A stretch of 64,000 nucleotides of DNA, from positions 58,693 through 122,692 of the forward strand of contig JBBCJA010000012.1 in the NCBI GenBank assembly GCA_037189585.1, read 5' to 3'. The notes beneath the pieces were generated by a model. It ran no database searches, was not told the origin of the DNA, and saw nothing but the letters and a program-made list of their open reading frames with translations. Both the position numbers and the translations under genes were made by a program. This document shows, piece after piece, positions 23,278 through 41,241 of the stretch (positions within the stretch are counted from its first letter, which is position 1; the number at the start of each line of letters is the position of its first letter). Source of the stretch: Selenomonadaceae bacterium (GTDB taxonomy: Bacteria > Vulcanimicrobiota > Xenobia > Xenobiales > JADMJV01).

Positions 23278-23333
23278 GAGCCTACCAGAGGTTTCTTACC
23301 GCGAACTTTCGCCACCATTACCGGGCTGTAATT
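23278..23333. repeat. Dispersed intergenic repeat unit (copy C) between the PiT and porin genes
   Basis: GAGCCTACCAGAGGTTTCTTACCGCGAACTTTCGCCACCATTACCGGGCTGTAATTC. Confidence 0.6.
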
Positions 23334-23346
23334 CAAAATGCGGCGA

Positions 23347-25021: not shown

Positions 25022-25260
25022 GTGTTTCTCCTTGGTCCGTCCTCTATCGCGGGCACGGACGGCTTAGAATCTGTTTTCAGCGAAACCGTCGTCTAGCAAA
25101 CGAAAAGTGAGCGATAATAAACTTAACGCTATGCCGTTCAGCGCGACCTAACAGACCTCACCTGGTGAAGTTCCCACTTCCAATAGCGCACTCTTTCACC
25201 ACGCACGAGCCGTAAGGTTGAGGAAAACTTCCTGCAATGTAGCTATCCTAGCTTGGGACC

Positions 25261-25891: not shown

Positions 25892-26001
25892 GACCCGAGT
25901 GATGAATTCTCAAATGAAACTATTTGAAGATGTTAGCAAGTTGTAACATCTGGTCATTCAGGTTCCTTTTTCATCCCATTTAGAGGAGATATCTTTTTCG
26001 T

Positions 26002-26712
26002 ATGACCACCATCTCATCACTATCGAACTACAATGAAGCCTCCTTCACTATTCGCTCCAAGCAAATTGGCAGCCCCAAACCGGATACGGAGTCTCCTGAT
26101 CCCACGGACGTACGAGACTTCGTGTCCGGCTCCAGCGCTCCAGGATTTAAATTAGCATCCCTTCAGCCGGGCAAATTGGGGTACACGGGATTTTCCGGAA
26201 CATCGATGGCCGGGCCACCGGTTTCAGGAATGGCTATTTTGGTCGGTAGTACCTTTGGGGAAAAAGAAGAATATGTGCCTAAGAACACATCGGATGTTCT
26301 CAATATGGACGCGGTGGGTGCCGCTGTCGAAGAAGTGCGTGCCACTCGAAGGCTCCTTGATCGAATGCAAGAAGACTTTGGAGTCACCGAGTGGACAGAG
26401 AAACCTGTAGTGGAGAAGCTAACAGTTCCGACCAGCGACATGGGTCTCCATGTCACGGGCGAGCAAGCCTTTACGATATCTGAAAGGGTGCGTAGTGTTC
26501 AGCTTCAAACCAAGACCCACAATTTTCTTATGAGAGAAAGTCTGGATACTGACAAAACCACCATAGCCGTGTGGAACGTGGGTGATCGAATGCCGGATGT
26601 TTGGGAGCGCGATTCGGAAAAGAAGAACGTGCTCATGGGACCGAGCACGAAGCCGGTCGAGCCTACGCCGAACGAGGGTAGACTTCCGGACGAGGGTAGA
26701 TTAGCCTTCTAA
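26002..26712 (+). CDS. Hypothetical protein in a low-GC region (~51% versus the ~60% background)
   Basis: An AT-rich promoter-like region and an SD lie upstream. No recognisable domain. It ends in a short direct repeat (NEGRLPDEGRL). Confidence 0.45.
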   Translation: MTTISSLSNYNEASFTIRSKQIGSPKPDTESPDPTDVRDFVSGSSAPGFKLASLQPGKLGYTGFSGTSMAGPPVSGMAILVGSTFGEKEEYVPKNTSDVLNMDAVGAAVEEVRATRRLLDRMQEDFGVTEWTEKPVVEKLTVPTSDMGLHVTGEQAFTISERVRSVQLQTKTHNFLMRESLDTDKTTIAVWNVGDRMPDVWERDSEKKNVLMGPSTKPVEPTPNEGRLPDEGRLAF

Positions 26713-26787: not shown

Positions 26788-29700
26788 CTAACCCGGATTT
26801 CTCTTGCCCAGGCGCAGGTAGAAGGCGGGTAGGAGAAACAGGCTCAGCACGGTGGAGGATGCCATGCCGCCGAGGATGACCAGCGCCATGGGGTACTCGA
26901 TCTCGTAGCCGGGAAGGTTGCCCCCCAGGGCGATGGGCAGCAGGGCCAGGATCTGAGTCAGCGCGGTCATCAGGACCGGGACGACCCTCTCACATGAGCC
27001 GCGGACCACCAGGTCCGGTCCGAAGGCGTAGCCTTCCTCCTCCTCCAGATGCCGGTAGTGACTGACCATCATGATCCCGTTGCGCGCGGCGATTCCGATG
27101 ACCGCCACGAATCCGACCAGGGAGCCGAGGGAGATGACTCCTCCTCCCCAGACGATCCCCGCCATCCCTCCGATCAAGGAGAAGGGTAAGGAGAGGAAGA
27201 TGACGGCCACCATGCGCGGCGACTCGAAGTCGGACTGCAGCAGTACCAGGATGAGGACCAGTGAAAGAATCGCCAAGGCTGAAAGACGCTTGAAGGCAGC
27301 CTCCTGAGCCTCGAACTCGCCCAGCGTTTCCGGATAGTACCCCGGTTCGAACTCCACCGACTTGAGCTTCTCGCGGATCCCCGCCGCCACACTGCCGAGG
27401 TCTTGCCCCTTGACATTGCAGGTCACGTCGATGCGGCGGGTGGCTCCTTCTCGAACGATGGCGTTGGGAGCGGAAACGATAGCGATCTCGGCCACCTCCG
27501 CTAAAGGAACTCGGTCCCCCGTGGGGGTCTCTACTAAAATCTCTCGAAGAGACTTGAGATCGCCGCGGACCGACCCTTCACTCCAGACGACCACGTCTTG
27601 GATGGCTTGCCCCTCGTAGAGCTCCCCAACCTTCAAGCCGCTGAGAAAGACGCTCTCCGCGCGCCGGATGTCCTGCTCGGTGATCCCATAGAAGGCCGCT
27701 TGCTCCGGACGCATACGAACCGAAATCTGAGGGACCAAAACTTGAGCCTCGACTTTGAGGTCGACCACCCCGGGCACTCCGGAGATGGCTGCCGCGACCT
27801 TGTGGGCCGAGTTGCGCAGGCCCTTCAACTCGGGGCCGGAGATGCGAACCACGATACTGGCATCGGCGCCGCTCAACACCTCTTTGACCCGCTCACGCAG
27901 ATAGGTGAGCACGTCGCGATGAAGGCCGGGATAGCCGTGGACCACCTCCTGAATTTTCTCCACCGTGGCGTCATAGTCGACGTTCGGCTCGATGCTGATC
28001 CAAAGCTCGGTGAAGTTGGGACCCACCACTTCGTCGGCCGCCTCGGCTCGCCCGATGTGAGCCCCGAAATTCCTGACCCCGGGGATCGACATCAGCTCTT
28101 CGCTGCCCTTGATGGTGATTCTGCGCATCGCCTCCAGGGACGTTCCCGGCTTTTCCACCCAGTGCATCAGAAAGTCGTTCTCTTTAAAGTGAGGCAAGAA
28201 CTCCTGACCGAATCGTCCGAAGGAGACGAAGGTCCCTATCAGACAGACGACGAGAAGGACCGCGGCCAGACCCGCTCTCTCCATCGTTAGAGCCAGAAGA
28301 CGACGGTAAACTTTTTGAATCCATCCTGCCAATACCCCGGTGTGGGACGAATCCGCCTCAACCTTAAGGCCCATCATGCAAAGTGCCGGTGTCACCGTGA
28401 GGGCCACCACCAAAGAGACCAGAATGGCCAGGGCGTAAGCGAAGGCTAAAGGTCGAAAGAACGCTCCGGCCAGGCCGTCCAGAAAAAACACGGGGATGAT
28501 GGTCACGATCACGATAGCGCTGGCGTAGACGATGGCCGAGCGGACCTCGACCGAAGCGTCCAGGATCACCTTCATCTTCGGCTCGGGATGCTCCAGCGCA
28601 GCGTTGAGGCGCAGGCGGCGGTTGATGTTCTCCACGTCGATGATGGCGTCGTCCACCACCGAGCCTAAAGCGATGGCGAAGCCCGCGATGACCATGGTGT
28701 TCACCGACTGCCCCATGGCGACGATAATCAGGATCGCGGCAAGTAATGAGATCGGAATGGCGACCGCGCTGATCAGAGCGCTTCTTAGGTCCGAGAGAAA
28801 GACCAGCAACACCACGACCACCATGACGCAGCCCAATCCTAGTGCCCAGGAGAGATTGTCCAGGGCCGTCTCGACGAAGGTGGCGGGTCGAAAGATGGTG
28901 GTGTCAAACTCCATGTCGGGAAGACCGGGACTCAAAGCTTGTAGGGCTTCCTCGATGCCCCGCGTGACCTCCAGGGTGTTCCCCCAAGGATACTTCTCCA
29001 CGATCAAGAGAAGGCCGGGCTGGCTGTTGATCACGGCGTCGCCGATGGCCGGCGGGGAGCCGATCTGAACCTTCGCCACGTCTCCCACCGTCACGGGGGT
29101 GCCGTTTCTGGAGGTCACCACGGCGCGGGTCAAGTCCTCGGGTGATCGAACCCAGCTCTGATGGCGAACGGGAAGGCGCTGGTTAGGGGTGTCGATGAAT
29201 CCTCCCCCACCCAGCGAGACGGCTCCGGCCACCGCGGTCATGACCTCCTGCAGGGAGACGTTCTGTTGGGCCAGGCGACGTGGTTCGACCATGACCTGGT
29301 ACTGTCGATTGTTCTGCCCCCAGATGGCGACGTTGGCCACCCCCGGCACGGCCATCAAGCGCGGACGGATGACCCAGCGGGCTGACTCGGACATCTCCAT
29401 CTGAGACAGTTTTTCAGAGGTGATACCCACCTTGAGAACTCGGCTGGTGGAGGACAACGGTGGAAGGATGACAGGCGGTCGAGCCGCCGCCGGCAGTCGC
29501 GGAGCGACCTGGGCCAGCCTCTCCTGAACGTTCTGCCTGGCAACCTCGAGATCGGCCCCGCGCTCTAAGATGAGAGTCACGGAGGAGAGTCCGAGAACCG
29601 ACTTAGAGCGCAAGGTCTCGACAAAAGGGGTGCTGGTCAGCGCGTTCTCGATGGGGATGGAGATCAGCTGCTCCATCTCTTCGGTGGATAGCCCCGGACC

Positions 29701-29856
29701 TTCCGTCTGCACCTCGACTCGAGGCGGGGCGAACTCGGGAAAGACGTCCATTTGAGAGTGTTGAAGGGAGATCACTCCCAGGCCGACCACCGCGAGTGCG
29801 GCGGTGACCACCAGGAGTCGGAAACGCATGGAGCTTTCAATCAGTGCGGCTAACAT
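26788..29856 (-). CDS. RND efflux transporter permease subunit (CzcA/CusA-like heavy-metal-efflux family)
   Basis: 1022 aa, 12 TM, two large periplasmic loops. The N-terminus [20 protein letters not shown] is typical of HME-RND. Gene order is OMF-MFP-RND. Confidence 0.85.
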
Positions 29857-31103
29857 CAGTCGTTACCAAACTCCACTCCGAAAATTTCCGCCGCCCCGTC
29901 GGCCACCACCTGAACTCCAAGCTCGGGCCCCTCGGACAACACCGCGAGACCATCTCTCAAGCTTTCGACCACGACTCGAACTCTTCGGTAGGTCTGTGGC
30001 TCGGTGCGAACGTAGACCCAGGCTCCGCCGTGAATGTCGTAGAGGATCGAAGCCGCCGGAACCACCAGGTACTGCCCCGCGCCTTTGAGAGCCAGAGTCG
30101 CCATCACGCGCTGATCGGGTCCCAAGGATTCCCGCGAGTTCTCCACCTGGTAGTAAAGATCGAAGGTCGAGGTCAACTGGTCGGCCGTGGGCGGACCCTT
30201 GACCGGTTTGGCTTGGAACTTTTTCCCCGAGACCGAGATCGCGGCGACCTCCTGGGGAAGCACCTCGGAGGCCTCGCTTTGCGGCACACGCACTCGAATC
30301 CAGAGCTGTCCCAGATCGACCAAGTCGAGCAGCGGTTGGCCGGCCGACACGGACTGGCCGGAGGAGACCATCACTCTGAGGATGGTTCCGCTCAGGGGAG
30401 CGACCTGGCTCAGCGGTGTGGGAGACCATGGTTTGGGGGCGTGGTCGACGCGCCGGATGGTCTGTTTCTCCCGTTGGGCCGCTTCCACGGTTTTTTGAGC
30501 GATGTTGCGGCGGGCCACGGCGTCGTCGACTCTTTTGCGACTCCCGACCTGTTGCTCGAAAAGCTCATTTGACCGTCGTAGCTCGATCTCGGCGGCCTCG
30601 AGCTCGGCTTCGGCCACGGCGATCCGTGTGGCGATGGCCGCGGCGCTTTGCTCCACGATGATTCGATTAGCGTTCAGCTGATCTATTTGAGCCGGGCCCA
30701 TAGCGAAGTCTCCCGCTGTTTGTAGAGGAACCAGGGAGAACAAGGACTGTCCTTTGGCCACGACGGTTCCCACCGCCAAGGGCTGGGGTCCCGTGTACTC
30801 CACCGTTCCGGCGGCCGGGGCCAGAAGCGTGGTCTGGCTCTGGGGCGGAAGCACGGTCACACCGGGATAGGTCCGGTGGTCAGAGATAGCCTGCCGCTTC
30901 GCTGGGACGACGGAGACCCCCAGGCGCTTCTCCGCCTTCTCCGTCAAACGAACGCTGGCAAGCTCCAGCTCGTCGGAGATCTGCATGACCGCGGCCGGCG
31001 GCGTCATGTGGGATGAGGGAGCGTGCGCTCCGCCTGCCCCTCCGCAACCGGACAGCGGAACAAGTGTCAATAAAGTCGCCAAAATAATTCTCACTATCAT
31101 CAA
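29856..31103 (-). CDS. RND efflux periplasmic adaptor (membrane fusion protein) lipoprotein
   Basis: Lipobox LSGCGG, a coiled-coil hairpin, and barrel-sandwich/beta-barrel regions. Its start and stop overlap the neighbouring genes. Confidence 0.8.
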   Translation of the reverse strand: MMIVRIILATLLTLVPLSGCGGAGGAHAPSSHMTPPAAVMQISDELELASVRLTEKAEKRLGVSVVPAKRQAISDHRTYPGVTVLPPQSQTTLLAPAAGTVEYTGPQPLAVGTVVAKGQSLFSLVPLQTAGDFAMGPAQIDQLNANRIIVEQSAAAIATRIAVAEAELEAAEIELRRSNELFEQQVGSRKRVDDAVARRNIAQKTVEAAQREKQTIRRVDHAPKPWSPTPLSQVAPLSGTILRVMVSSGQSVSAGQPLLDLVDLGQLWIRVRVPQSEASEVLPQEVAAISVSGKKFQAKPVKGPPTADQLTSTFDLYYQVENSRESLGPDQRVMATLALKGAGQYLVVPAASILYDIHGGAWVYVRTEPQTYRRVRVVVESLRDGLAVLSEGPELGVQVVADGAAEIFGVEFGND

Positions 31104-32365
31104 TCCTCTCTCGTGAAACGAACGTTGACCGCCAACTCCAGCTCGCCCAGGGCTCTATGCAAGAGCGCGATATCGGCTAAGAAAGCTTGGCGTTGTCGCT
31201 GCACCGACTGCCCGGCCAGCAAAACATCGGTAATGTCGCCCTGACCGAGTTCGTAGGTCTTGTGAGCCAGTTCCAGCACTCGGTCGGCCTGGGGCTGCAG
31301 CACCTGCAAATCATGGCTCACCTGGCGGCGAGCGTTTTGAAAGTTGGTCCAAGCCAGGGCCACGGCTTGCTCAGCCGCTACCAGCGTGGCCTGATGGCGA
31401 AGCAGCGCTTCTTGCTCGCGAGAGCGCGCCTGCCGCACCTCCCCACTCCGGTCACTGCCCAATGGGATCTCCACCTGCACCCCCGCCTGGTAAGTGAAAG
31501 CCGGGTAGATCGGGTCGTAGAGCAGCGCCGCCTGGAGGGAAAGGTCGGGAGATTGGTTGGCCCGGGCCAGATCCACTCGGTGGCGGGCCGTTTCTACCTG
31601 CTGAACGGCCAGGGCCAGGTCAGGCCGGTTTTCTCTGGCCAGCTCCTGAAGTGTGAACAGGTCCGGCAGGTCCCATTCCGGCCCCTCGATGGAGACTTCG
31701 GTGGGAAAGAGCGCACCGTCGCTCACCACGTCAAGCCGCATCTCGAGGGGCTGGCCCAGCAACCGGTTTAGGGTCAGAAGGGCGGTTTCCACGCGGTTCT
31801 CCGCAGGATAGATGAGGCGCTGGTTCTGCTCTTTCTCGAAGACCCCCCGAATGACATCGGCCTCGGCGATGTCGCCCGCCTGAAACCTTCGGGTCGCCGC
31901 TTCCACCAAACGATCATAAAATTCCAGGTCGCGCCGACTCTGCTCTAAGACAGCCCCCGCGATGGCGAGCTCCACGAAAGCGTTACGGGTTTGGTTCAAA
32001 ACGACCAGGCGAGCCTGAGAGCGGGAAAGCGCGGCCTCCTTGACGCCGTCCTCGGCCACCGTCACGCGGGCTCTCCGCCGCCCTCCGGTCTCTAGAGGGA
32101 CGTCGAAGGTCAGTCTCTGCTTACGCTCCGCCGGTCCGATCGGAAAGGCGTAACTCAAGCTAGGGTTCGGTCGCTGCTCGGCGATGGAGATGGCGTCTCG
32201 GGCGACCTCGATACCTTGCTCTACGACCAGGAGATCAGGGTTGCGACTCTCGGCAAGTTCCAGTGCCTGCCCCAAGGTCAAGCGCACGCCCTCCTCCGAG
32301 GGAGCGCCCATCGCTTTAGGCGGGCAGATGCCGACCAACAGAAGAAGAAAGAGAAGGAGCTTCAC
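31100..32365 (-). CDS. TolC-like outer membrane efflux factor (CzcC-like). The probable GTG start is at about 32365. The track ORF runs to 32455 and would read through repeat copy E.
   Basis: Signal-peptide-like VKLLLFLLLLVGIC follows the alternative start. There are two helical/beta-repeat halves with TolC-family patterning. Confidence 0.75.
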   Translation of the reverse strand: MKLLLFLLLLVGICPPKAMGAPSEEGVRLTLGQALELAESRNPDLLVVEQGIEVARDAISIAEQRPNPSLSYAFPIGPAERKQRLTFDVPLETGGRRRARVTVAEDGVKEAALSRSQARLVVLNQTRNAFVELAIAGAVLEQSRRDLEFYDRLVEAATRRFQAGDIAEADVIRGVFEKEQNQRLIYPAENRVETALLTLNRLLGQPLEMRLDVVSDGALFPTEVSIEGPEWDLPDLFTLQELARENRPDLALAVQQVETARHRVDLARANQSPDLSLQAALLYDPIYPAFTYQAGVQVEIPLGSDRSGEVRQARSREQEALLRHQATLVAAEQAVALAWTNFQNARRQVSHDLQVLQPQADRVLELAHKTYELGQGDITDVLLAGQSVQRQRQAFLADIALLHRALGELELAVNVRFTRED

Positions 32366-32371
32366 GCCCCC

Positions 32372-32426
32372 GAGGCTAGCAAAGCTTCCTTGCGGCCAGC
32401 TTTCGTCTATATTACGGAGCGGTAAT
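32372..32426. repeat. Dispersed intergenic repeat unit (copy E)
   Basis: GCAAAGCTTCCTTGCGGCCAGCTTTCGTCTATATTACGGAGCGGTAATC. Confidence 0.6.
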
Positions 32427-32624
32427 CTCCGCCTTAGGTGGCCAAGGTCGACCAACTCCGCGGCGACTCGGAGCGAGTGGACGTGACTCGAGCTGGCTGG
32501 ACTCTCGTATCGGTTGGAGAGGCGACGAGGGTTCCATCAGCGACACCTGACCCAGAAGGCAGGAGCCGGACAGCAACCTCGACGTGCGACAGGCATCGAC
32601 TGTAGGTGACTCGAAATCCAAGCG

Positions 32625-33539
32625 ATGAGGACAGCTCTCCTGTTACTTCTTGCTCTCTTTTTCGTGCCGCCGGCGTCTGCCCAGGGCACGCCCGAGGCCA
32701 CCGTGGAACAGTTCTACCGTGACTGGCTGGCATGGCACAGCGGCCAGGGGCAACCCAGGGAAGATTGGGTAGCCCAGCACCGCTCGTTGCTGACTCCTTC
32801 GCTCTACAAGCCTCTGCACAAAGCGCTTTCGATCCATCCCAAGTACGGCTTGCCTCCCATCGATTTCGACCCCTTCACGAGTAGCCAGGTGAGCTTTGTG
32901 AGCTATCAGGTTGGACAGGCCAAGCTGGAGGGGGACACCGCCACCGTGCCGGTCGCGATGCGCCTCCAGACCCGCGTCTCAGAGCCGGGGACGGTCCATT
33001 ACCGCAAGATGCGTCTAGAAAGAACCGGCGGTGAATGGCAAATCTCGGACATCGTCTACCGGGAGGGCTCGCAGCTCTCCAGCGTCCTGGAAAGTCTGCG
33101 CGACTGGAAGCCGGTAAAACCCAGGGTCACCAACCAGGAAGCGGTCCAACGACTCTTTGACGGCTGGCTGGCGGAGAACCGAAAAGGCCAGCCGACGCCC
33201 GGGATGACGATCGCCTTCCTAGAGCGTCATCGAGATCTGCTGGCTCCCGAGACCGCCGACCTCCTTCTCGAAGCCTTAAGAACCTCACCCCCATTGGACC
33301 GTAACCTCTTTTGTAATGGCTCCTACAGGATGGTCAGCTACCAACTCGGCACCTCCTACGGCGGTGAATCCTTCTCAGTCCAAGTGCGACGGGAGGGGAA
33401 GGACGGCCAGAGCCATGTGCAGGGGCTGATGGTGGATGCGGCGGACGGGCGAGTGACGAACGTGATTTATGGACTGCCCGACGCTAACATGCTAGAGGTA
33501 TGCCGAAAGCACCTGGACCTGGCGCGCGCGCACCCCTGA
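32625..33539 (+). CDS. Secreted protein made of two internally duplicated ~130-aa domains
   Basis: Signal peptide MRTALLLLLALFFVPPASAQG. Repeat 1 is EQFYRDWLAWHSGQGQ...HRSLLTPSLYKPL. Repeat 2 is QRLFDGWLAENRKGQP...HRDLLAPETADLL. Confidence 0.5.
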   Translation: MRTALLLLLALFFVPPASAQGTPEATVEQFYRDWLAWHSGQGQPREDWVAQHRSLLTPSLYKPLHKALSIHPKYGLPPIDFDPFTSSQVSFVSYQVGQAKLEGDTATVPVAMRLQTRVSEPGTVHYRKMRLERTGGEWQISDIVYREGSQLSSVLESLRDWKPVKPRVTNQEAVQRLFDGWLAENRKGQPTPGMTIAFLERHRDLLAPETADLLLEALRTSPPLDRNLFCNGSYRMVSYQLGTSYGGESFSVQVRREGKDGQSHVQGLMVDAADGRVTNVIYGLPDANMLEVCRKHLDLARAHP

Positions 33540-33597
33540 GGCCGGCAAAGCTTCTTTACCGCCAGCTTTCGCTTATATTAAGTTAAGGAGCGGCAAT
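33538..33597. repeat. Dispersed intergenic repeat unit (copy F)
   Basis: GGCAAAGCTTCTTTACCGCCAGCTTTCGCTTATATTAAGTTAAGGAGCGGCAATC is nearly identical to copy E. Confidence 0.6.
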
Positions 33598-33619
33598 CTT
33601 GGGGGCTGAGTCCCGGTTC

Positions 33620-34528
33620 TTAACCCCGACGCTCGGCGCTTGCCTCTTCCAGGCGCTCGGCGCGTGCCTCTTCCAGGCGCTCAGCGTAGCCTTCGTTGGC
33701 CCACTCCGGAGGAGCGACATCGGGGTAGCGGTCCACCAGGTCCAAAATGACATCACGAGTCTCAGGGGTCGTCGCGTGGTCTAGAAGAAAGTCCACCGCT
33801 TCGTGGTCAAACCAGTCGAACATTCCCGAAATCGCGTTGTTGGCGGCAAGGTGGTGGTCAAGGTCGATCCGATAGGCATCGAGTCCAGAGAGAAAATCTG
33901 CCCGGGAAGGGGAGTGTTTTTCATGCTGTTTGGCTTGTTCCAACAGCATCTTCGCGACTTGAGAATGGTCTTGAGAGTCAGAAAATCTGAAAAGCTCCTC
34001 AGAGCGGCTATGAAAACTTGAGGGGGTGAGCTGTTGGCTAGAAATCCGTGCAAACTGAAGCTTGTCGGAAAGAGAGGTCGACTCGAGGTTAGCCGCCGTA
34101 CGCGCAATCACATCATCGCTACTCCCAGCGATCTGCTCGAAAGCCTGCTCGAGAGGGGCCTGCAGTGGTCCCCGGCGGTTGCTGAGAGAGAGCAGGTCGC
34201 CCAGCACCTGGAGAGGGCCTTGAATACTCCCAAAGCTAGTTCTCGTGGCTTGAAAAGCCACCGAGTCGAGAAGGGCGCGATTAAAGTTAAGCTTGTCCTT
34301 GCCGGTAAGTTCGGAGCCGACCGAGCGGAGGTGAGAAAGATTTTTCGCCAGAGCCGGGTCAGACTCGTAGCTCGTCACAGAGATCCGGTCGAGAGCCTGG
34401 TCTGCCGCGCTCTGATTCTTTTCCGTCGAGCGTAGAATATGAAATCGATTGGCCTCGCCGACGCCTTGTCTGGCCAATCCGGCAATGGAGTATCGGAGAG
34501 CGTTATTTGAGTTGAGTGAAGCGGTCAT
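33620..34528 (-). CDS. Hypothetical protein in a low-GC islet. It ends in the tandem peptide repeat AERLEEA(R/S)AERLEEA.
   Basis: 302-aa Ser/Leu/Ala-rich ORF with no signal peptide and no recognisable domain. Local GC is about 50-52%. Confidence 0.4.
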   Translation of the reverse strand: MTASLNSNNALRYSIAGLARQGVGEANRFHILRSTEKNQSAADQALDRISVTSYESDPALAKNLSHLRSVGSELTGKDKLNFNRALLDSVAFQATRTSFGSIQGPLQVLGDLLSLSNRRGPLQAPLEQAFEQIAGSSDDVIARTAANLESTSLSDKLQFARISSQQLTPSSFHSRSEELFRFSDSQDHSQVAKMLLEQAKQHEKHSPSRADFLSGLDAYRIDLDHHLAANNAISGMFDWFDHEAVDFLLDHATTPETRDVILDLVDRYPDVAPPEWANEGYAERLEEARAERLEEASAERRG

Positions 34529-34585
34529 CTGTCCTTGTCCTTTAGGGGTCTGACGTCAGACTAACCAGAAGGCGTTAAGATAGCG

Positions 34586-35239
34586 TTAAAGACTGGATAA
34601 AGAGCTATTGAGCCGGTTGGGTCTATGCACTCTTTTTTGCTGGTGGTCGTAGAAGACGGCGTCGGGATGTGAGTATATGATGGAGCCTCGATTTTGGGCA
34701 GTTTCTATCGAGTGATAGATCGCGAGCGTATCATAGTTGAGGAGGCTCACAAGGACATTATCGCCGTCAGTGAAAGCGAGCAGGAGAGATTCCATGCCAA
34801 GAACTTCACGGTCGTGTCCAAACCAGTGATTCCAGGCATAGAACGGAGTCAGGCTAGAGAGTTTCCTTGGCCTCGTTGATATCCAGCGCTCGGTGACATC
34901 CCACTCCTGGTATTGGGATTTGCTGTCGAAAAAGGTCTCGATAAAGGGACCTAGCTCCACACAAAGTGATTGTAGGAATCGCATCCAACAGACGGAAAGC
35001 CGCTGGCCATCCACCAAAACGAGTTCCAGTCCGTAGTCCAGTTCGTCAAACTCTTCTTGTTGCCATCCATGCTGTGTCCACTCGCAGTCTCCCTCAACTT
35101 TGATTCCAAAGTAGCGAACCTGGCAGACCTCAGAGCCGATGAGACTGTGAAGGCAAACGGAGGCAGATTCGACGTCCTGATAGCAGTCTGCATAAGCAAC
35201 CGAATTGGGAGAGAGCTCCAGATGCGGGGCTCGACTCAT
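34586..35239 (-). CDS. Hypothetical cytoplasmic acidic Trp-rich protein in a low-GC islet
   Basis: 217 aa with no known motif. It is co-oriented with and upstream of the 33620..34528 gene. Local GC is about 50%. Confidence 0.4.
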   Translation of the reverse strand: MSRAPHLELSPNSVAYADCYQDVESASVCLHSLIGSEVCQVRYFGIKVEGDCEWTQHGWQQEEFDELDYGLELVLVDGQRLSVCWMRFLQSLCVELGPFIETFFDSKSQYQEWDVTERWISTRPRKLSSLTPFYAWNHWFGHDREVLGMESLLLAFTDGDNVLVSLLNYDTLAIYHSIETAQNRGSIIYSHPDAVFYDHQQKRVHRPNRLNSSLSSL

Positions 35240-35266
35240 TCTTGACAGAGTATCAGAGAATGAGTT

Positions 35267-35655
35267 TTACGTGGAGGTATCCCAGAAGTTGGCTTCAACT
35301 TTGTTGCCGTCGGGGTCAAGGATAAAACAGCCGTAGTAGGGTTCTCCGTAGTGAGGTCGAGGTCCCGGTAGGCCGTTGTCTCGTCCACCGGCATCGAGCG
35401 CCGTCTTATAGAACAGGTCGACCTCTTCTTTCGAAGAGGCGGTGAAGCTAAAGTGGATACCATTTCCGGGATTCGCGGGCTGACCATCGAGCGGGGTTTG
35501 CACCCAGAACTCGGGAAACAGCTTTCCATAGGCGACCGCGCCCGGATGCTCGAGAATACGGTGGGCCCCGACTACGGCGAGCACACGATCATAAAAATCG
35601 GTCGCCCGGGCAAAGTCGTTGGTGCCCAATGAGACGTGATTGATAATGCTAGGAT
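35267..35655 (-). CDS. VOC-family (glyoxalase/bleomycin-resistance/dioxygenase) protein. The probable GTG start is at about 35655. The track ORF extension to 35947 is rejected.
   Basis: NHVSLGTNDFARATDFYDRVLAVVGA ... YGCFILDPDGNKVEA. There is an AGGAG SD upstream of the GTG. Confidence 0.6.
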
Positions 35656-35672
35656 TGTCCACGGCTGCTGTT

Positions 35673-36182
35673 TTACTCCTCCGCCGGTGCGGTCGTGGAC
35701 GGCTCCAGACCGAAGACTTGAATGGATTTGAGGCCATAGACGGAGCGGCTAGGCCTTTCATCACCGGTGACCAGCAGGCGAACTTTCTCGCCGTCCTCAG
35801 ACCATACGATGTAGGCCGGGCGGTTTCCGAAAGTGGGCAAAAGCTCGCCCAGGGCCACGGTGGCCAGGTAGCCATCTTCTCCCACGGCCAGACAGACGAA
35901 GGCCAGGTTGGCGTTCTTCCTGTCAGAAGGTGTGTCCAACTGAGCAAAGTCCAGGCACTGCAAGAGTTCCAGTGCGTAGCCTGACTCCTGGCGGTCCTTG
36001 ATCGGATAAGTCATAAGTTGAACCTTATCCGGCCAGCGCTTTTGGGCCGACCGCAAGGTCAGCTCCAAGGGTTGCTTGAGCTTACCGGTGATAGCCACGG
36101 AGGCGGGGTCCGCTTGAGCCGCGCCAAGAGAGAGCAGAACGACAAATCCCAGGATGAAACTTCTCACTGACTTGAAACCCAT
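35673..36182 (-). CDS. Hypothetical secreted protein starting at MGFKSV, not at the track ORF start 36272
   Basis: Signal peptide MGFKSVRSFILGFVVLLSLGAAQA. A GAGGAGGA SD lies 7 nt upstream. Confidence 0.45.
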   Translation of the reverse strand: MGFKSVRSFILGFVVLLSLGAAQADPASVAITGKLKQPLELTLRSAQKRWPDKVQLMTYPIKDRQESGYALELLQCLDFAQLDTPSDRKNANLAFVCLAVGEDGYLATVALGELLPTFGNRPAYIVWSEDGEKVRLLVTGDERPSRSVYGLKSIQVFGLEPSTTAPAEE

Positions 36183-36357
36183 GCGGGTAATCCTCCTCGA
36201 GAACCTGGACCTATTTTGGAATCCGTCTCGCGAATCCGTTCCCAGATCGGACCAAACCCTCCTTCGTTTCAAAATCGTTTCGAATGTTTCAAAGTTTTTT
36301 CAGAACGTTCCGTTAAATTGATGCCACAAGAACATCAAATATATAGAGGATACGAAA

Positions 36358-36729
36358 ATGCTTACTGCTCTGAACAACTCACCCACCCTCGGCTCCAACT
36401 ACAAATTCGACCGCACCCAAAACTCCGACCCCGCCACCAATCCGAACCGGGCTCCCGCCGAGAGCTTCCGCTCCAGCGAATCGGTCGACGCCGGTCTGAT
36501 GCCCCGCGGATTCGCCCAGTCCAAGGATGTCGCTAAGAGCGAAGAAGCTCAGCCCACCAAAGAATCTTTCTGGGATCGCTTCGGCACCGGCGCCGGCATT
36601 GGTGCTCTCATCGGAGGCATCGCCCCAGGTGTAGTCCTTCCCTTCATCGGCTTCGCCCTGGCTCCGGTAGGAATGGCCACCGGCGCGCTGATCGGCGGAA
36701 CTGTGGCTGGTTTTTGCGGCAAAGAGTAA
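36358..36729 (+). CDS. Small glycine-zipper membrane protein
   Basis: The C-terminus GAGIGALIGGIAPGVVLPFIGFALAPVGMATGALIGGTVAGF carries GxxxG zipper motifs. An AGAGGA SD is present. A TTGATG(N9)CATCAA palindrome lies in the upstream AT-rich region. Confidence 0.5.
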   Translation: MLTALNNSPTLGSNYKFDRTQNSDPATNPNRAPAESFRSSESVDAGLMPRGFAQSKDVAKSEEAQPTKESFWDRFGTGAGIGALIGGIAPGVVLPFIGFALAPVGMATGALIGGTVAGFCGKE

Positions 36730-36770: not shown

Positions 36771-37892
36771 CTACTCACTGGCCGCGCTGGTGTCGGTTCT
36801 ATTTTCTGCCAAAGACTCATCGTCAAAAAGAGTCAGCTGAAGGGGTCTATCGTCGTGGAGCAGCCCGGAGAGACCGACCCCCAGAAGTCGCACCGGTCTT
36901 TGGTGATAGTCAGTCTTGCTCAAAAGTTCCATTCCCACCGCCAGGATCTCCCCAGTCGCTCGGGTGGGATGGGGCAAAGTGAAGCTACGCGTGATGGTCG
37001 AAAAGTCATCGTAGCGCAGCTTGAGAACGACGGTCGATCCACTAAGACGCGCCCGCCGGCAGCTCTCCGCGACCTCTTCAACTTGTTTGAGCAAGTGCTC
37101 ATGCAGAACCTCCGCCTCCCGGATATTCTGGGCAAAGGTGCGCTCAGTCGACAACGACTTTGCCTGCCCGCGGCGCTCGACGGGACGGTCGTCTTGCCCT
37201 CGAGCCAGTCGATAATACAAAAGTCCGGTCTTTCCGAACAGCTTGAGCGCCTCTTCCAACGACAGCGCGCGGAGCTGGGCGATGGTGTGGATCTCTAGTT
37301 TAGCCAATCGATCCACCGTGGCCGGTCCGATCCCCCAGATCCGTCCTACCGGCAAGGGGTCGAGAAATTCCCTCACCTGATCGGGCAGGACCACTGTCAA
37401 TCCGTTGGGTTTTCGCATGTCCGATGCGACCTTTGCCAAAAACTTGTTCGGTGCTACTCCAGCCGAGGCGGTGAGCCCGGTACTGTGAAAAATCTCGGCC
37501 TTGAGGTCGGCGGCCAGCCGGGTGGCGGTGATACCGAGTCGAGCCGAAGTTTCGGTTAGATCCAGGAACGCCTCGTCGATGGAGAGCGGCTCCACCAACG
37601 CGGTGTAGCGCTCGAAGATCTCCCGGACCTGGCGAGAGGTCTCCACATAGACCTCCATCCTCACGGGCTGGCGATGGAGCGGGGGACAGCGGCGGAAGGC
37701 CTCCCCCATGCTCATGGCGCTTCGGATACCATACCGCCTGGCTTCGTACGAGGCGGCCGCCACCACTCCGCGCCGGTCCTGACTTCCTCCGACCACCACA
37801 GGCAAGCCCTTAAGATGAGGGAAATCACGCTGCTCGATGGAGGCGTAAAAGGCGTCCATGTCCAGGTGGACGATCTTGCGAAGCATGCTCAA
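36771..37892 (-). CDS. dinB: DNA polymerase IV (Y-family translesion polymerase)
   Basis: IVHLDMDAFYASIEQRD, PVVVGG, SYEARRYGIRSAMS and the little-finger domain. Confidence 0.9.
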   Translation of the reverse strand: MSMLRKIVHLDMDAFYASIEQRDFPHLKGLPVVVGGSQDRRGVVAAASYEARRYGIRSAMSMGEAFRRCPPLHRQPVRMEVYVETSRQVREIFERYTALVEPLSIDEAFLDLTETSARLGITATRLAADLKAEIFHSTGLTASAGVAPNKFLAKVASDMRKPNGLTVVLPDQVREFLDPLPVGRIWGIGPATVDRLAKLEIHTIAQLRALSLEEALKLFGKTGLLYYRLARGQDDRPVERRGQAKSLSTERTFAQNIREAEVLHEHLLKQVEEVAESCRRARLSGSTVVLKLRYDDFSTITRSFTLPHPTRATGEILAVGMELLSKTDYHQRPVRLLGVGLSGLLHDDRPLQLTLFDDESLAENRTDTSAASE

Positions 37893-37932
37893 GTGTCCAT
37901 TCTGAATCAGAAATGCGATCCGAGCAAGAGAG

Positions 37933-37966
37933 TCGCCGCCAGCTTTCGCGCGGTAGCGCTGCCAGT
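37933..37966. repeat. Dispersed repeat unit (copy G) abutting tandem array 2
   Basis: GTCGCCGCCAGCTTTCGCGCGGTAGCGCTGCCAG shares the CCGCCAGCTTTCGC core with copies E, F and H. Confidence 0.5.
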
Positions 37967-38424
37967 TTTTCTGATCGCGCGCACCTCACGCGGGCAACGC
38001 TGCCAGTTTTCCTGATAGCGCGCACCTCGCACGGGCAACGCTGCCAGTTTTCTGCGATAGCGCGCCCTTCGCGCGGGCAACGCTGCCAGTTTTCTTGATA
38101 GCACGCACATCGCGCGGGCAACGCTGCCAGTTTTTCTGATAGCGCGCCCCTCACGCGGGCAACGCTGCCAGTTTTCTGCGATAGCGCGCACCTCACGCGG
38201 GCAACGCTGCCAGTTTTTTTGATAGCGCACCTCGCGCGGGTAGCGCTTCCAGTTTTTTTGATAGCGCACCTCGCGCGGGTAACGCTACCAGTTTTTTGAT
38301 AGCGCACCTCGCACGGGCAACGCTGCCAGTTTTCTGCGATAGCACGCCCCCTCGCGCGGGTAACGCTGCCAGTTTTCTGCGATAGCACGCCCCTCACGCG
38401 GGCAACGCTGCCAGTTTCCGCGAT
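37950..38424. repeat. Tandem array of about 12 degenerate ~41-bp units (array 2), the reverse-complement orientation of array 1
   Basis: The unit is GCGGGCAACGCTGCCAGTTTTyCTGATAGCGCGCACCTCrC. The reverse complement of its constant half, AAAACTGGCAGCGTTGCCCGC, differs from array 1's AAAACTGGCAGCACTGCCCGC by 2 nt. Confidence 0.8.
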
Positions 38425-38437: not shown

Positions 38438-39319
38438 CTAGCCTGAGATGGCTTTGGTCATCTGATGGAGCGCTGCCTTCTGGCGAAAGCCCAACGAGGT
38501 GTAGAGCTTGAGAAATTCCGGGTTGTCCGTCTTCCAGATCTGGCGAATCAGCTTCACTTCTGGCTGTTGCCAGGCGAATTCCAAAGCGGAGCACAAAAGA
38601 GCCACGCCGTAGCCGTGACGCCTGTAGTCAGAGCGAATTCCAAAGGATTCGATGATGGCTGTCTCTTCGGCTAACTCCAGCTCCAAGAATCCAACCATCT
38701 GGCTCTCACGTTCGGCCACGAAGATATGATAATCGGGGAGCGACAGAAGGAGGTCCAGAAACTGTCGGCTGCGAGGTTGAAATATCTTGCCGTGCAACGC
38801 GATATAAGCATCGCGATCAAAAGCCTTCCCTCCAACCACGTGGCGCAGGGTCAAGCCGGGAACTTCCGGCTTCCCGCCCTGATACGGCTGGTCGCAAGTC
38901 ACGATAAGCTGAGTGCTTCCCTGCTTGAAACCCAATCTTTTCAGAAACTTCTCGCCCAGCCTGTTCTCGTCTTCTAAAAGAACGGAGACGGTGGAGACCC
39001 GCCGCGAGCGCATCAGGTCGGCGAGTTCGTGCCAGAGCCTCTCCCCCAATCCCTGGCCTCGCTCGGAATAAGCCACAACCGGCCCATCCATACGGGCGTG
39101 CCCGTCAGATGGGGTGGAGTAACCGCAGAAGCCTAATAGGTCGCCCTTTTGGCTTTCCACTACGAGATAGTCTTTTTTGGGATCGCCACCTCTTTCAGAG
39201 ATCTCGGCCTTGAGGCGATCAGGAGTCAAACCGGAAAGTCTAGCGGAATCCCGGTAGGTCTGATTAAGAAGGTCGGCGACGGGCAGATAATCGGAGGCTT
39301 GGAAATGACGGATGATCAT
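38438..39319 (-). CDS. Tandem-GNAT N-acetyltransferase (MshD-like architecture)
   Basis: Two acetyl-CoA-binding motifs: RGQGLGERLWHEL and RRHGYGVALL. Confidence 0.7.
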   Translation of the reverse strand: MIIRHFQASDYLPVADLLNQTYRDSARLSGLTPDRLKAEISERGGDPKKDYLVVESQKGDLLGFCGYSTPSDGHARMDGPVVAYSERGQGLGERLWHELADLMRSRRVSTVSVLLEDENRLGEKFLKRLGFKQGSTQLIVTCDQPYQGGKPEVPGLTLRHVVGGKAFDRDAYIALHGKIFQPRSRQFLDLLLSLPDYHIFVAERESQMVGFLELELAEETAIIESFGIRSDYRRHGYGVALLCSALEFAWQQPEVKLIRQIWKTDNPEFLKLYTSLGFRQKAALHQMTKAISG

Positions 39320-41241
39320 GGCTTGAGTCTGATTCTTTTTCTCACCGGCTCGGACTGTCCTGTCGCCGGGTCGGCCAGTCCGGGCGGTTTGGGCCCAGGA
39401 TATTGAAAGAGTTCACAGGGGATCGTACCGTTGTAGATTTTGCGGACTCGTTCCGGCTCTTTCCCATAATGAGAGACGAAATTTTCAAACCCCGTATAAA
39501 AGTAAAGCGACCAAGTCTCGTGAAGCGGCTCGAAAACCTCAGCCATGGTTTCAGTCAACGCGGCCACCTCATCTTGAGAGGAGAGGCGTTTTCCATAGGG
39601 CGGGTTGGTGATCAACACGCCGTAACGCCGAGACGTCTCGAAGTCCGCCACATCTCGAGTTTGAAAGTGCAACCCAAGTCCCTCAAAGCCGGCTTGAGTC
39701 ACGTGTTCGCGAGCCAGTTTGAGGACGCGTCCGTCGACATCGCTACCGTAAAGACGGAGGTGCGCTCGTCGCACCTGGAGGTCACGCGCCTCTTTGTGGA
39801 CCTCCTCCCACGGCTTGCGTCCCAACCAGTCCCAGCGCTGGGAGGCAAACGAACGGTCCAAGCCGGCCGCTTTTCTCAGGCCGATACTGGCCGCTTCCAA
39901 GAGGATGGTTCCACTGCCGCACATCGGGTCGTACAATTCGCGCTCCGGGCTCCAATGGGAAAGCAGAACCAGAGCCGCGGCCACCGTCTCGCGCAGGGGC
40001 GCCTTGGCGTTGTAAGTGCGATAACCACGCCGATGGAGACCTTCACCCGAGGTGTCGATGAAAACCCGAGCCCGATTGTAGACGATAAAGACACGAATAG
40101 CGAATTTCGCACCGCTTTCCGAAAAGGCGGCTCGACCGTAGGTCTCGGACATCTTTTGAATGGCGGCCTTTTTCGCTACAGCCTGACAGGAGGAGACACT
40201 TTCGAGCTTCGACTTGGTGGTGATCGCCTCAACGGGGAACCAGGCGTCGCGTGGCAGCATGGCGGCCCAGTCGATGGCGAGCACGCCCTGGTAGAGCTCC
40301 TCGAAGTCACGACACGGAAACTCGGCCAACTGTAGCCAGACGCGGTCGGCCGTGCGCAGCCAGTAGTTGGCTTTGGCCAGGTTGTAAGGAGAGAAAGGGA
40401 AAGAGACCTGGGCGTTCTGGCGCGAGATCGGACCCAAATCCAAAGCTTCGAGCTCTCGTCCGACGGTCAATTCCAGTCCTAGAGCGCATGTCGCAACCAG
40501 CTTGAGCTGCTGATCGGCTGGAGGCTGGTTGAATTTCTCGGAGTCGGGGGCACGATAGTGCTCTCCGTCGCGGCGTCGGCTGTAACCGCCCTCGCGTCTT
40601 GCCACCGGCGCATTCTGGTTCTCGTGTCTTTGTCCGTGTTCTCGTTGGGGCGGTCGGCGAAAATCATCCCGACGCGGCCCGTCATCGCTACGAGGACCTC
40701 CATCGCGGGTATAGCCACCCTCGCGGCGCGGACCGCCCTCGCGGTTATAGCCTCCACCCTCACGGCGGGGACCACCCTCGCGGTTATAGCCTCCACCCTC
40801 GCGGCGCGGACCACCCTCGCGGTTATAGCCTCCACCCTCACGACGGGGACCACCCTCTCTGCGCGGACCGCCCTCACGATTGTAACCTCCATCCTCGCGG
40901 CGGGGTCCGCCCTCGCGGTTATAGCCTCCACCCTCACGACGGGGACCACCCTCGCGGTTATAGCCTCCGCCTTCACGACGGGGACCACCCTCGCGGTTAT
41001 AGCCTCCACCCTCGCGGCGGGGACCACCCTCGCGATTATAGCCGCCGCCCTCGCGGCGCGGACCGCCCTCCCGACTGTAGCCGCCGCCCTCACGACGGGG
41101 ACCACCCTCTCTGCGCGGGCCGCCTTCACGGCCATAGCCGCCGCCTCGGTCCTGACCTCCTTCTGGAGGTGAGCTTCTCCTCTGGCCTCGAGAGGGTCGA
41201 CGGGGGGCGTCGCCCTTGGGATCTCTATCGTGTGGCTCCAT
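39316..41241 (-). CDS. THUMP-domain class I SAM-dependent RNA methyltransferase (RlmL/UPF0020-like) with a ~230-aa N-terminal Arg/Gly-rich tandem-repeat extension
   Basis: The C-terminal part carries DPMCGSGTILLEAA (motif I) and NPPYGKRL (motif IV). The N-terminus is about 13 copies of REGGPRREGGGYN. No alternative start is available at the THUMP boundary, which is encoded CTC-AAG-CTG. Confidence 0.65.
   Translation of the reverse strand: MEPHDRDPKGDAPRRPSRGQRRSSPPEGGQDRGGGYGREGGPRREGGPRREGGGYSREGGPRREGGGYNREGGPRREGGGYNREGGPRREGGGYNREGGPRREGGGYNREGGPRREDGGYNREGGPRREGGPRREGGGYNREGGPRREGGGYNREGGPRREGGGYNREGGPRREGGYTRDGGPRSDDGPRRDDFRRPPQREHGQRHENQNAPVARREGGYSRRRDGEHYRAPDSEKFNQPPADQQLKLVATCALGLELTVGRELEALDLGPISRQNAQVSFPFSPYNLAKANYWLRTADRVWLQLAEFPCRDFEELYQGVLAIDWAAMLPRDAWFPVEAITTKSKLESVSSCQAVAKKAAIQKMSETYGRAAFSESGAKFAIRVFIVYNRARVFIDTSGEGLHRRGYRTYNAKAPLRETVAAALVLLSHWSPERELYDPMCGSGTILLEAASIGLRKAAGLDRSFASQRWDWLGRKPWEEVHKEARDLQVRRAHLRLYGSDVDGRVLKLAREHVTQAGFEGLGLHFQTRDVADFETSRRYGVLITNPPYGKRLSSQDEVAALTETMAEVFEPLHETWSLYFYTGFENFVSHYGKEPERVRKIYNGTIPCELFQYPGPKPPGLADPATGQSEPVRKRIRLKP
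40650..41165. repeat. Coding tandem repeat with a 39-bp period (about 13 copies) encoding the REGGPRREGGGYN array
   Basis: The 39-nt unit ACCCTCGCGGTTATAGCCTCCACCCTCGCGGCGCGGACC is reiterated. The overlapping ORFs on other frames and strands are artefacts of the repeat. Confidence 0.7.

What the first reader, a model, noticed from the sequence alone, without database searches (positions are those of the whole stretch)
33538..35239. Low-GC islet (~50% versus ~60%) encoding two co-oriented hypothetical proteins and flanked by a dispersed repeat copy
Genes 34586..35239 (an acidic, Trp-rich 217-aa cytoplasmic protein) and 33620..34528 (a 302-aa Ser/Leu-rich protein ending in AERLEEA repeats) lack any recognisable domain. 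They have lower GC than their surroundings, and repeat copy F lies directly next to them. The architecture fits an acquired effector/immunity or toxin/antitoxin-like pair.
Basis: partly seen in the sequence, partly recalled or inferred. Interest (0 to 1): 0.5.

Follow-up and report, generated by a model that had tools for sequence, protein, structure and literature searches.

The report
Inserted VOC-enzyme two-gene cassette

Summary
Both ORFs exist as described and neither matches a known domain. Only gene B (34586-35239, 217 aa) is low in GC, at 50.9%. Gene A (33620-34528, 302 aa) is 56.4%, against a window mean of 58.3%. Codon measures for both lie within 1.5 SD of the window's genes. A and B are not a conserved pair. 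In the closest relatives (four assemblies, ~85% nt identity) gene A directly follows the 199-aa secreted-protein gene, and window ~34615-35672 is missing. That 1.06-kb segment is exactly a VOC/glyoxalase-fold gene (35267-35662) plus gene B. The same VOC-B pair, 8 nt apart, recurs in three contigs from other samples, in a different neighbourhood (after a TetR and an FAD-monooxygenase gene) and without gene A. A fourth contig carries that VOC in the same neighbourhood but ends before any B. B's last 13 codons run into the conserved upstream spacer of gene A, which argues for insertion here. B belongs to a small family absent from Pfam, is under purifying selection, and evolves faster than the VOC gene. 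Gene A is a lineage-conserved all-alpha protein. The ~70-nt repeat is real, but it marks a neighbouring indel. Function is unproven; my best guess is a small-molecule detoxification or resistance module. The finding is ordinary.

The parts
34615..35672 (-). Segment present in the window but absent from the closest relatives (L001-L004). It holds the VOC gene plus gene B up to codon 204. It also holds 10 nt (35663-35672) and 13 nt (34615-34627) of filler of unknown origin. The right edge is ambiguous by about 13 nt (34602-34615).
   Evidence: blastn of L001-L004 against the window jumps from 35673 to 34601. Junctions were read. No terminal direct or inverted repeats. No tRNA gene in the window.
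35267..35662 (-). VOC (glyoxalase/bleomycin-resistance/dioxygenase fold) gene, 131 aa. It has a GTG start, 12 nt after a GGAGGAG that lies in the 3' end of the preceding gene. H9, E51, H70 and E123 are invariant among 4 orthologues.
   Evidence: PF00903 at 45.5 bits against a cut-off of 20.6. Sequence read. Nearest solved structures are 4Z04 and 4QB5, both of unknown function. Alignment A9. dN/dS 0.04-0.08.
34586..35239 (-). Gene B, 217 aa, cytoplasmic and acidic, a member of an uncharacterised family. Residues 1-204 are homologous to the partners of the sister VOC genes. The last 13 codons (HRPNRLNSSLSSL) are encoded by filler plus the pre-existing spacer upstream of gene A.
   Evidence: phmmer against 1.84 billion representatives gave 19 hits, the best at 56% identity. 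The profile search added more members. No Pfam or PDB match. dN/dS 0.19-0.31. End of homology located.
34529..34614 (-). Conserved upstream spacer of gene A. It contains the direct repeat TTTAACGCTATCTTAACGCC (34571-34590, which includes B's stop codon), a window-specific perfect palindrome GTCTGACGTCAGAC (34548-34561), and an AAGGA Shine-Dalgarno-like site.
   Evidence: Alignment of the window, L001 and L005 spacers. Sequence.
33620..34528 (-). Gene A, 302 aa, an all-alpha protein conserved in this lineage and not part of the inserted cassette.
33630..33686 (.). 24-nt in-frame tandem duplication (2.4 copies) in the 3' end of gene A (ERLEEARA/ERLEEASA). It is specific to this genome.
   Evidence: TRF. 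Protein alignment A1.
33533..33609 (+).
   Evidence: blastn and nhmmer.
32366..32438 (+). Second strong copy of the same repeat. Together with 33533-33609 it brackets the DUF3828-like gene. Relatives L001-L004 keep one copy and lack window 32429-33651.
32625..33539 (+). DUF3828-like secreted protein gene (304 aa), with composition typical of the genome (GC 61%, CAI 0.755). It is absent from L001-L004.
   Evidence: Pfam PF12883 at E 2e-4, below the cut-off..
35673..36272 (-). Gene for a secreted protein of unknown function. The longest ORF is 199 aa. The likely start is the Met before the signal-peptide-like FILGFVVLLSLGAAQA. In L001-L004 this gene is followed directly by gene A.

Best explanation
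Shown. The low-GC patch is a compact two-gene cassette. It carries a VOC-fold (glyoxalase/bleomycin-resistance/dioxygenase superfamily) gene followed by gene B. Gene B belongs to a small family of cytoplasmic proteins that no database describes. It evolves faster than the VOC gene but is under purifying selection. In this genome the cassette lies in the short spacer between a secreted-protein gene and gene A. The closest relatives have the same spacer without it. More distant relatives carry the same VOC-B pair at another locus, after a TetR regulator and an FAD-dependent monooxygenase. Gene A is a separate, lineage-conserved all-alpha protein with its own conserved upstream element.

Inferred, insertion. 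The cassette was inserted or relocated here by illegitimate recombination. It arrived without its own ribosome-binding site and without B's native 3' end. The VOC gene now uses a GGAGGAG inside the end of the upstream gene. B reads on into the old spacer to a new stop codon. The pair is probably co-transcribed with the upstream gene.

Inferred, function (weak). VOC and B act together on a small molecule. The VOC protein would be a metal-dependent enzyme or binding protein that detoxifies or sequesters an electrophile, aromatic compound or antibiotic. B would be an accessory partner. My confidence is about 0.85 for the anatomy and history and about 0.3 for the function.
For: Absence at this site in close relatives. 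Four independent assemblies of the closest relative (L001-L004, 82-90% nt identity over up to 11 kb) join window 35673 directly to ~34601 (junctions).

The missing piece is the VOC gene plus B. The VOC gene scores 45.5 bits on PF00903 against a cut-off of 20.6.

The pair recurs elsewhere.
- VOC and a B homologue are adjacent, 8 nt apart, in L096, L130 and L129. These come from three different samples. L129 holds only the first 38 codons of B before the contig ends.
- The flanks there are TetR, an FAD monooxygenase, a 143-160-aa gene and a 434-aa membrane protein. None of these occurs in the window.
- L131, from a further sample, has the VOC gene after the same 143-aa-type gene but ends before any B.
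- VOC identity to the window is 81-83% aa. B identity is 49-56%.

Boundaries. Homology to the sister cassettes starts at the VOC start codon and ends after B codon 204. B's stop codon lies in TTTAACGCnnTCTTAACGCC. That motif is conserved upstream of gene A in lineages that lack B.

B is a real gene. dN/dS is 0.19-0.31, and it has 19 phmmer hits plus further profile hits.

Composition. B homologues are equally low in GC in their own contigs.

VOC residues. H9, E51, H70 and E123 are invariant in the four VOC orthologues.

No terminator-like site lies between the three genes.
Against: Function rests only on the VOC fold and on the TetR/monooxygenase neighbourhood in relatives. The nearest solved VOC structures (4Z04, 4QB5) have no known function.

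No fold could be obtained for B. The single-sequence AF2 model has pLDDT 34.

Remote B-family members are not next to VOC genes, so the partnership may be specific to this subfamily or merely inherited adjacency.

The direction of the event is inferred by parsimony. The L001 lineage has clearly lost other genes nearby, namely the RND operon, a porin gene and the DUF3828-like gene.

Co-transcription is not shown.
Confidence: 0.6

Rival explanations
1. One reading: genes A and B form an acquired effector/immunity or toxin/antitoxin-like pair.
For: In the window the two genes are co-oriented and 57 nt apart, and both lack known domains. B lies in a segment that varies between relatives.
Against: A occurs without B in L001-L004 and in L005-L008. 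B homologues with readable downstream sequence (L096, L130) are followed by a membrane-protein gene, not by A, and L129 ends inside B. None of these other contigs shows the pair. A has its own conserved upstream element. There are no toxin, antitoxin, immunity or defence hits. At 302 and 217 aa the sizes are atypical for type II TA systems.
Confidence: 0.04
2. Gene B is an orphan immunity protein of the polymorphic-toxin type, kept as protection against a competitor's toxin. The VOC gene is only an inherited neighbour.
For: B is small, cytoplasmic and acidic. It evolves about 3-5 times faster than VOC in dN. Remote family members sit in variable contexts. One lies between a transposase and an SMI1_KNR4 (SUKH) gene (L095). 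One is next to an IS3-type transposase (L090). Others lie in runs of small unknown genes (L091, L094).
Against: None of the 30 family members matches any Pfam immunity family. hhalign against the SUKH neighbour gives probability 0.1%. No toxin domain is recurrent among 147 neighbour ORFs of 39 B-family loci. The tight 8-nt VOC-B spacing is kept in three contigs from different samples.
Confidence: 0.12
3. The VOC-B pair is ancestral at this position and was deleted in the L001 lineage, so nothing was inserted in the window genome.
For: The L001 lineage has lost other genes in the same 12 kb: the RND efflux operon, a phosphate porin gene and the DUF3828-like gene.
Against: The more distant L005 lineage also lacks VOC-B upstream of gene A but keeps the same spacer motif. 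B's C-terminal 13 residues are not homologous to those of the sister B proteins, and most of them are encoded by that spacer. The sister lineages keep VOC-B in a different, mutually conserved neighbourhood.
Confidence: 0.12
4. The segment is a recent horizontal acquisition from a compositionally foreign donor, that is, a classical genomic islet.
For: B has the lowest GC of 51 ORFs in the window. The segment shows presence/absence polymorphism.
Against: GC3 and CAI are within 1.5 SD. The low GC is shared by B homologues in their own contigs and comes mainly from GC2. VOC and B diverge from the sister copies (dS 1.2-1.8) about as much as gene A does from the L005 lineage (dS 2.0), though these values are saturated. 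There is no integrase, transposase, tRNA gene or terminal repeat at the borders. There are no relatives in viral contigs.
Confidence: 0.1

Closest known systems
Single-domain VOC superfamily proteins of unknown function (PDB 4Z04, 4QB5; Pfam PF00903 Glyoxalase)
   Same: The 131-aa upstream gene matches PF00903 above the gathering score. It aligns end to end with 4Z04 (E 4e-24), including the GGRDNG-PG-RPHY...YY..F.LDPDG motif.
   Different: Those structures carry no functional annotation. Nothing is known about a partner protein like B.
VOC-fold resistance determinants (FosA/FosB/FosX fosfomycin-modifying enzymes; bleomycin-binding proteins)
   Same: Same fold class and a small size. The context in relatives suggests xenobiotic handling: TetR plus an FAD monooxygenase.
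   Different: NCBIfam Fos models score 12-15 bits against cut-offs of 180-275. It is not a member. Those determinants act alone, without a B-like partner (from my own knowledge).
Polymorphic-toxin immunity proteins (SUKH/SMI1_KNR4 and Imm families; Zhang et al. 2012, PMC3482391)
   Same: B is small, cytoplasmic, fast-evolving and scattered in variable contexts. One remote homologue lies next to an SMI1_KNR4 gene.
   Different: No sequence or profile similarity. No adjacent toxin gene here or recurrently in relatives. That paper does not mention VOC or glyoxalase proteins.
Type II toxin-antitoxin modules
   Same: Two co-oriented genes of unknown function.
   Different: The genes are far larger than typical TA proteins. 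They are 57 nt apart. There is no DNA-binding or toxin domain, and the pairing is not conserved.
Small strain-variable 'flexible genome' indels without mobility genes
   Same: A 1-kb presence/absence difference between close relatives. It lies in a region with several other gene-content differences.
   Different: Nothing unusual, apart from edges that coincide almost exactly with the ORFs. B's 3' end was rebuilt from host spacer sequence.

Membership tests
Effector/immunity (polymorphic toxin) pair formed by A and B | One partner carries a recognisable toxin or trafficking domain | tested here: not met
   No Pfam, NCBIfam, PADLOC or PHROGs hit for A or B. The model of A is a generic helical repeat.
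Effector/immunity (polymorphic toxin) pair formed by A and B | The toxin and immunity genes stay adjacent across relatives | tested here: not met
   A occurs without B in 8 contigs. B homologues with readable downstream sequence (L096, L130) are not followed by A.
Effector/immunity (polymorphic toxin) pair formed by A and B | The immunity partner belongs to a known immunity family (SUKH, Imm) | tested here: not met
   30 B-family members were scanned against Pfam at E <= 5 and gave only three unrelated single hits. hhalign against a SUKH protein gives probability 0.1%.
Type II toxin-antitoxin | Two small (<~150 aa), tightly coupled genes, with a DNA-binding domain in the antitoxin | tested here: not met
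   The proteins are 302 and 217 aa, with a 57-nt spacer that holds A's own conserved upstream element. No HTH, RHH or AbrB hits.
VOC (glyoxalase/bleomycin-resistance/dioxygenase) superfamily, for the gene at 35267-35662 | Match to PF00903 above the gathering score over the whole domain | tested here: met
   45.5 bits against 20.6, profile positions 2-120 of 121. 4Z04 at E 4e-24.
VOC (glyoxalase/bleomycin-resistance/dioxygenase) superfamily, for the gene at 35267-35662 | Metal-binding H/E/H/E tetrad, which would indicate an enzyme and not a pure binding protein | tested here: inconclusive
   H9, E51, H70 and E123 are invariant in 4 orthologues. Their spacing resembles the glyoxalase I ligands as I recall them. 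No structural superposition was done.
FosA/FosB/FosX fosfomycin resistance | NCBIfam equivalog or exception model above its cut-off | tested here: not met
   Best score 15.3 bits against cut-offs of 180-275.
Horizontally acquired genomic island | Presence/absence polymorphism between close relatives | tested here: met
   Window ~34615-35672 is absent from L001-L004.
Horizontally acquired genomic island | Composition or codon usage foreign to the host | tested here: not met
   GC3 and CAI are within 1.5 SD of the window's genes. The low GC is shared by homologues elsewhere and driven by GC2.
Horizontally acquired genomic island | Mobility signatures at the borders (integrase or transposase, tRNA gene, terminal repeats) | tested here: not met
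   No tRNA gene in the window. No terminal repeats beyond chance. No such ORFs nearby. The ~70-nt repeat flanks a different indel.
Integron gene cassette | attC recombination site at the 3' end and an integron integrase nearby | not tested
   No dedicated attC model was run. B's native 3' end is missing, and no inverted repeat lies at the 3' border.

The most novel reading that the evidence does not exclude
Gene B founds an undescribed protein family, absent from Pfam, NCBIfam and the PDB by sequence. In one subfamily it would be an obligate partner of a VOC-fold protein. VOC-B would then be a new two-component module for resistance or immunity against a small-molecule or protein toxin. Its ORF-exact relocation, with the 3' end rebuilt from host sequence, would be a trace of how such modules move without mobile-element machinery.
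Probability: 0.15. Interest if true: 0.5.

Novelty: new member of a known kind. Interest (0 to 1): 0.22.

Why it matters
It corrects the unit of analysis. The variable element is VOC plus B, not A plus B, so any experiment on a supposed A/B toxin pair would be misdirected.

It gives a modest lead. A conserved, tightly spaced pairing of a widespread VOC protein of unknown function with an unannotated protein family could help assign a role to both.

It also shows that this 12-kb neighbourhood is a hotspot of gene-content change in an unsampled bacterial lineage, with a ~70-nt intergenic repeat at several breakpoints.

Otherwise it is an ordinary accessory-gene indel.

Tried and rejected
No fold search was possible for B.
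- The afdb50 fold library was unavailable.
- Genome contigs. Gene A found nothing. DinB found only relatives at <= 52% identity spread over many phyla. The organism therefore stays unidentified and no complete-genome synteny could be done.
- Rfam gathering scan of the window: nothing. tRNA scan: nothing.
- Viral contigs: no relatives of A or B.
- Neighbour enrichment for 39 B-family loci: no recurrent family and no toxin domain among the listed families.
- hhalign of the B family against VOC, a SUKH protein and gene A: no relation.
- RNA structure for the ~70-nt repeat: weak (-6.8 kcal/mol, little covariation). Not pursued.
- The promoter/terminator scan of 33300-36500 gave nothing above the shuffled expectation.
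- My dN/dS line for the secreted-protein gene was mis-framed and should be ignored.
- The literature search found nothing linking VOC proteins with immunity genes.
Full report
**Observation**

Neither matches Pfam, NCBIfam, PADLOC or PHROGs.

The window averages 58.3% GC.
- Gene B is 50.9%. That is the lowest of 51 long ORFs and about 2.3 SD below 654-bp windows.
- Gene A is 56.4%, which is unremarkable.
- The whole finding is 54.0%.

At codon level neither gene is a strong outlier. GC3 is 0.58 for B and 0.62 for A, against 0.66 +/- 0.055. CAI is 0.711 and 0.722, against 0.733 +/- 0.038.

B is acidic (pI 4.9) with 7 Trp. A is rich in Ala, Leu and Ser. A ends in a duplicated ERLEEA(R/S)A, which comes from a 24-nt tandem duplication that its homologues lack.

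The repeat next to gene A is real. It lies at 33533-33609 and has a strong partner at 32366-32438. Weak copies lie at 23278-23332, 15716-15756 and 25210-25254.

**Gene A is conserved and is not paired with B**

Gene A has three homologues in public assemblies, at 79, 76 and 65% aa identity (alignment).

In the closest lineage (L001-L004) there are four assemblies from four samples, at 82-90% nt identity to the window over up to 11 kb. There, gene A follows directly after the homologue of the window's 199-aa secreted-protein gene. The blastn alignment jumps from window 35673 to ~34601.

In the more distant lineage (L005-L008) gene A follows a CBS-domain gene, in a cbb3-oxidase neighbourhood.

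All three lineages share the ~65-80 nt upstream of gene A. This stretch includes the direct repeat TTTAACGCnnTCTTAACGCC. Gene A therefore looks like a stand-alone gene with its own control region.

**What the missing segment is**

Window ~34615-35672 contains two genes.
- The first is a 131-aa VOC/glyoxalase-fold gene at 35267-35662. It has a GTG start and matches PF00903 at 45.5 bits against a cut-off of 20.6.
- The second is gene B.

The long ORF 35267-35947 listed by the ORF finder over-extends this VOC gene into the 3' end of the preceding gene. The sequence shows a GGAGGAG 12 nt before the GTG, and that GGAGGAG lies inside the end of the secreted-protein gene.

**B is a real gene with a real family, and its conserved partner is the VOC gene**

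A full phmmer scan of 1.84 billion representatives found one homologue at 56% identity (P0006) and 18 remote ones. A profile search added more, and a metagenome scan gave 32 further loci.

None of 30 members matches Pfam, and the profile finds no solved structure. The residues conserved in at least 90% of members (window numbering) are G35, V41, Y43, W59, D65, D68, G70, E72, W85, D114, V115, W119 and D170.

Three contigs show the VOC gene next to a B homologue, and a fourth carries the VOC gene alone.
- P0006's contig (L096) has a VOC C-terminus 8 nt upstream of the B homologue and a 434-aa membrane protein downstream. Gene A is not there.
- The VOC protein's own sequence cluster led to L129, L130 and L131.
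- L130 has VOC, then 8 nt, then a 209-aa B homologue, then the same membrane protein.
- L129 has TetR, an FAD monooxygenase, a 143-aa gene, a 142-aa gene, VOC, 8 nt, and then the first 38 codons of a B homologue before the contig ends.
- L131 has the 143-aa-type gene and VOC, and ends before any B could be seen.

None of those flanking genes occurs in the 64-kb window. VOC identity to the window is 81-83% aa, and B identity is 49-56%. dN/dS is 0.04-0.08 for VOC and 0.19-0.31 for B. Both are constrained, and B evolves several times faster.

B homologues are equally low in GC in their own contigs (0.51-0.54, GC2 0.38; contigs ~0.55). The low GC is therefore a property of the gene and not a mark of recent foreign origin.

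**Direction of the event**

Homology between the window and the sister cassettes begins at the VOC start codon. It ends after B codon 204 (...QQKRV).

B's last 13 codons (HRPNRLNSSLSSL, then the stop) are encoded by two pieces. The first is 13 nt of unknown origin. The second is sequence homologous to the gene-A upstream spacer of lineages that have no B. The stop codon itself lies in the conserved TTTAACGC motif. The sister B proteins end differently (...VIGNP...VIGDPSP).

The L005 outgroup also lacks the cassette upstream of gene A. Together this favours insertion or relocation into the spacer in the window's lineage over a deletion in L001. The deletion rival is still kept, because the L001 lineage has lost other genes nearby.

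I found no terminal repeats, tRNA gene, integrase or transposase at the borders.

**Function**

The VOC protein's nearest solved relatives (4Z04, 4QB5) are structural-genomics entries without a function. Fos resistance models are far below their cut-offs. H9, E51, H70 and E123 are invariant in four orthologues. Their spacing resembles the metal ligands of glyoxalase I, but that comparison is from my memory and not from a superposition.

In the sister lineages the pair lies downstream of a TetR regulator and an aromatic-hydroxylase-type FAD monooxygenase. That is a typical xenobiotic or antibiotic-modification context.

On this basis I propose, with low confidence (~0.3), that VOC-B is a small-molecule detoxification or resistance module in which B is an accessory partner.

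The orphan-immunity alternative has some contextual support. One remote homologue lies between a transposase and an SMI1_KNR4 gene. Another is next to an IS3-type transposase. Others sit in runs of small unknown genes. Several results weigh against it:
- There is no family or profile similarity to immunity proteins.
- No neighbour family recurs among 147 neighbour ORFs, and none of the 25 families that the scan listed is a toxin domain.
- Remote B-family members are not next to VOC genes.

**The repeat and the neighbourhood**

The two strong copies of the ~70-nt repeat bracket the DUF3828-like gene (32625-33539). L001-L004 keep one copy and lack window 32429-33651. This is what a deletion between direct repeats would leave.

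The same relatives lack two other segments.
- Window 27109-32323, the OEP/CusB/ACR_tran efflux operon, is missing. Only a 107-aa ACR_tran remnant is left there.
- Window 22183-23361, a phosphate-selective porin gene, is missing. A weak repeat copy lies just inside its edge.

The repeat is therefore associated with neighbouring breakpoints and not with the VOC-B segment.

**Organism**

No close genome exists in the GTDB species set searched. DinB finds at best 52% identity, spread over many phyla. The lineage is unidentified.

**Verdict**

The interpretation as an acquired A/B toxin or effector pair is not supported. The real feature is an ordinary 1.06-kb accessory cassette (VOC plus B) inserted beside a conserved gene. 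There is a modest point of interest in the undescribed B family and its conserved pairing with a VOC protein.

Noticed in passing
window 13022-13386 and 37946-38417: Two arrays of a 41-42-nt tandem repeat (about 9 and 12 copies, no spacers, so not CRISPR). They are in inverted orientation, 24.6 kb apart, and bracket the whole region discussed here. Each unit contains a short GGCA-ACGC-TGCC hairpin followed by a T-run. The 190-aa ORF 37825-38397 over the second array is probably spurious.
   Followed up: no
window 32366-32438, 33533-33609, 23278-23332 (weak: 15716-15756, 25210-25254): A ~70-nt intergenic repeat family lies at or near breakpoints of gene-content differences with relatives L001-L004. 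These are the DUF3828-like gene between two copies, the edge of the RND-operon deletion, and the porin-gene indel. Consensus RNA structure is weak.
   Followed up: partly
window 27109-32323 versus L001 1569-1892: The relatives L001-L004 have lost the OEP/CusB/ACR_tran RND efflux operon. They keep only a 107-aa C-terminal ACR_tran fragment.
   Followed up: partly
window 22183-23361: The phosphate-selective porin O/P gene (22129-23271), next to the PhoU_div/PHO4 phosphate-transport genes, is absent from L001, where 33 nt take its place.
   Followed up: partly
window 34548-34561: A perfect 14-nt palindrome, GTCTGACGTCAGAC, lies between B's stop and gene A's start. The corresponding sequence in L001 and L005 is imperfect.
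   Followed up: no
window 40694-41109 within ORF 39316-41241: 39-nt coding tandem repeats (Gly/Arg-rich) lie in the N-terminal extension of an RlmL/THUMP-type methyltransferase. An ankyrin-repeat gene lies immediately upstream, at 41225-41782.
   Followed up: no
whole window; loci L010-L089: No close relative of this organism is in the 185,579-species genome set. DinB is at most 52% identical, with best hits scattered over Deltaproteobacteria, Planctomycetota, Rokubacteria, NC10 and others. The window also has no Rfam match at gathering level and no tRNA gene.
   Followed up: partly
L006 5282-5725: In the L005/L006 lineage a MamS_MamX-domain gene and an HTTM-domain gene lie a few kb from the gene A homologue. 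This is a faint hint about lifestyle or taxon that I did not pursue.
   Followed up: no
window ~25900-26550 and ~59450-60100: Two other stretches are as low in GC as gene B (48-49%). The first covers an intergenic region and the start of a 236-aa ORF with a sub-threshold subtilase match. The core-type PhoU_div gene (24404-25021) is also only 51.8% GC. Low GC alone is therefore not diagnostic in this genome.
   Followed up: partly
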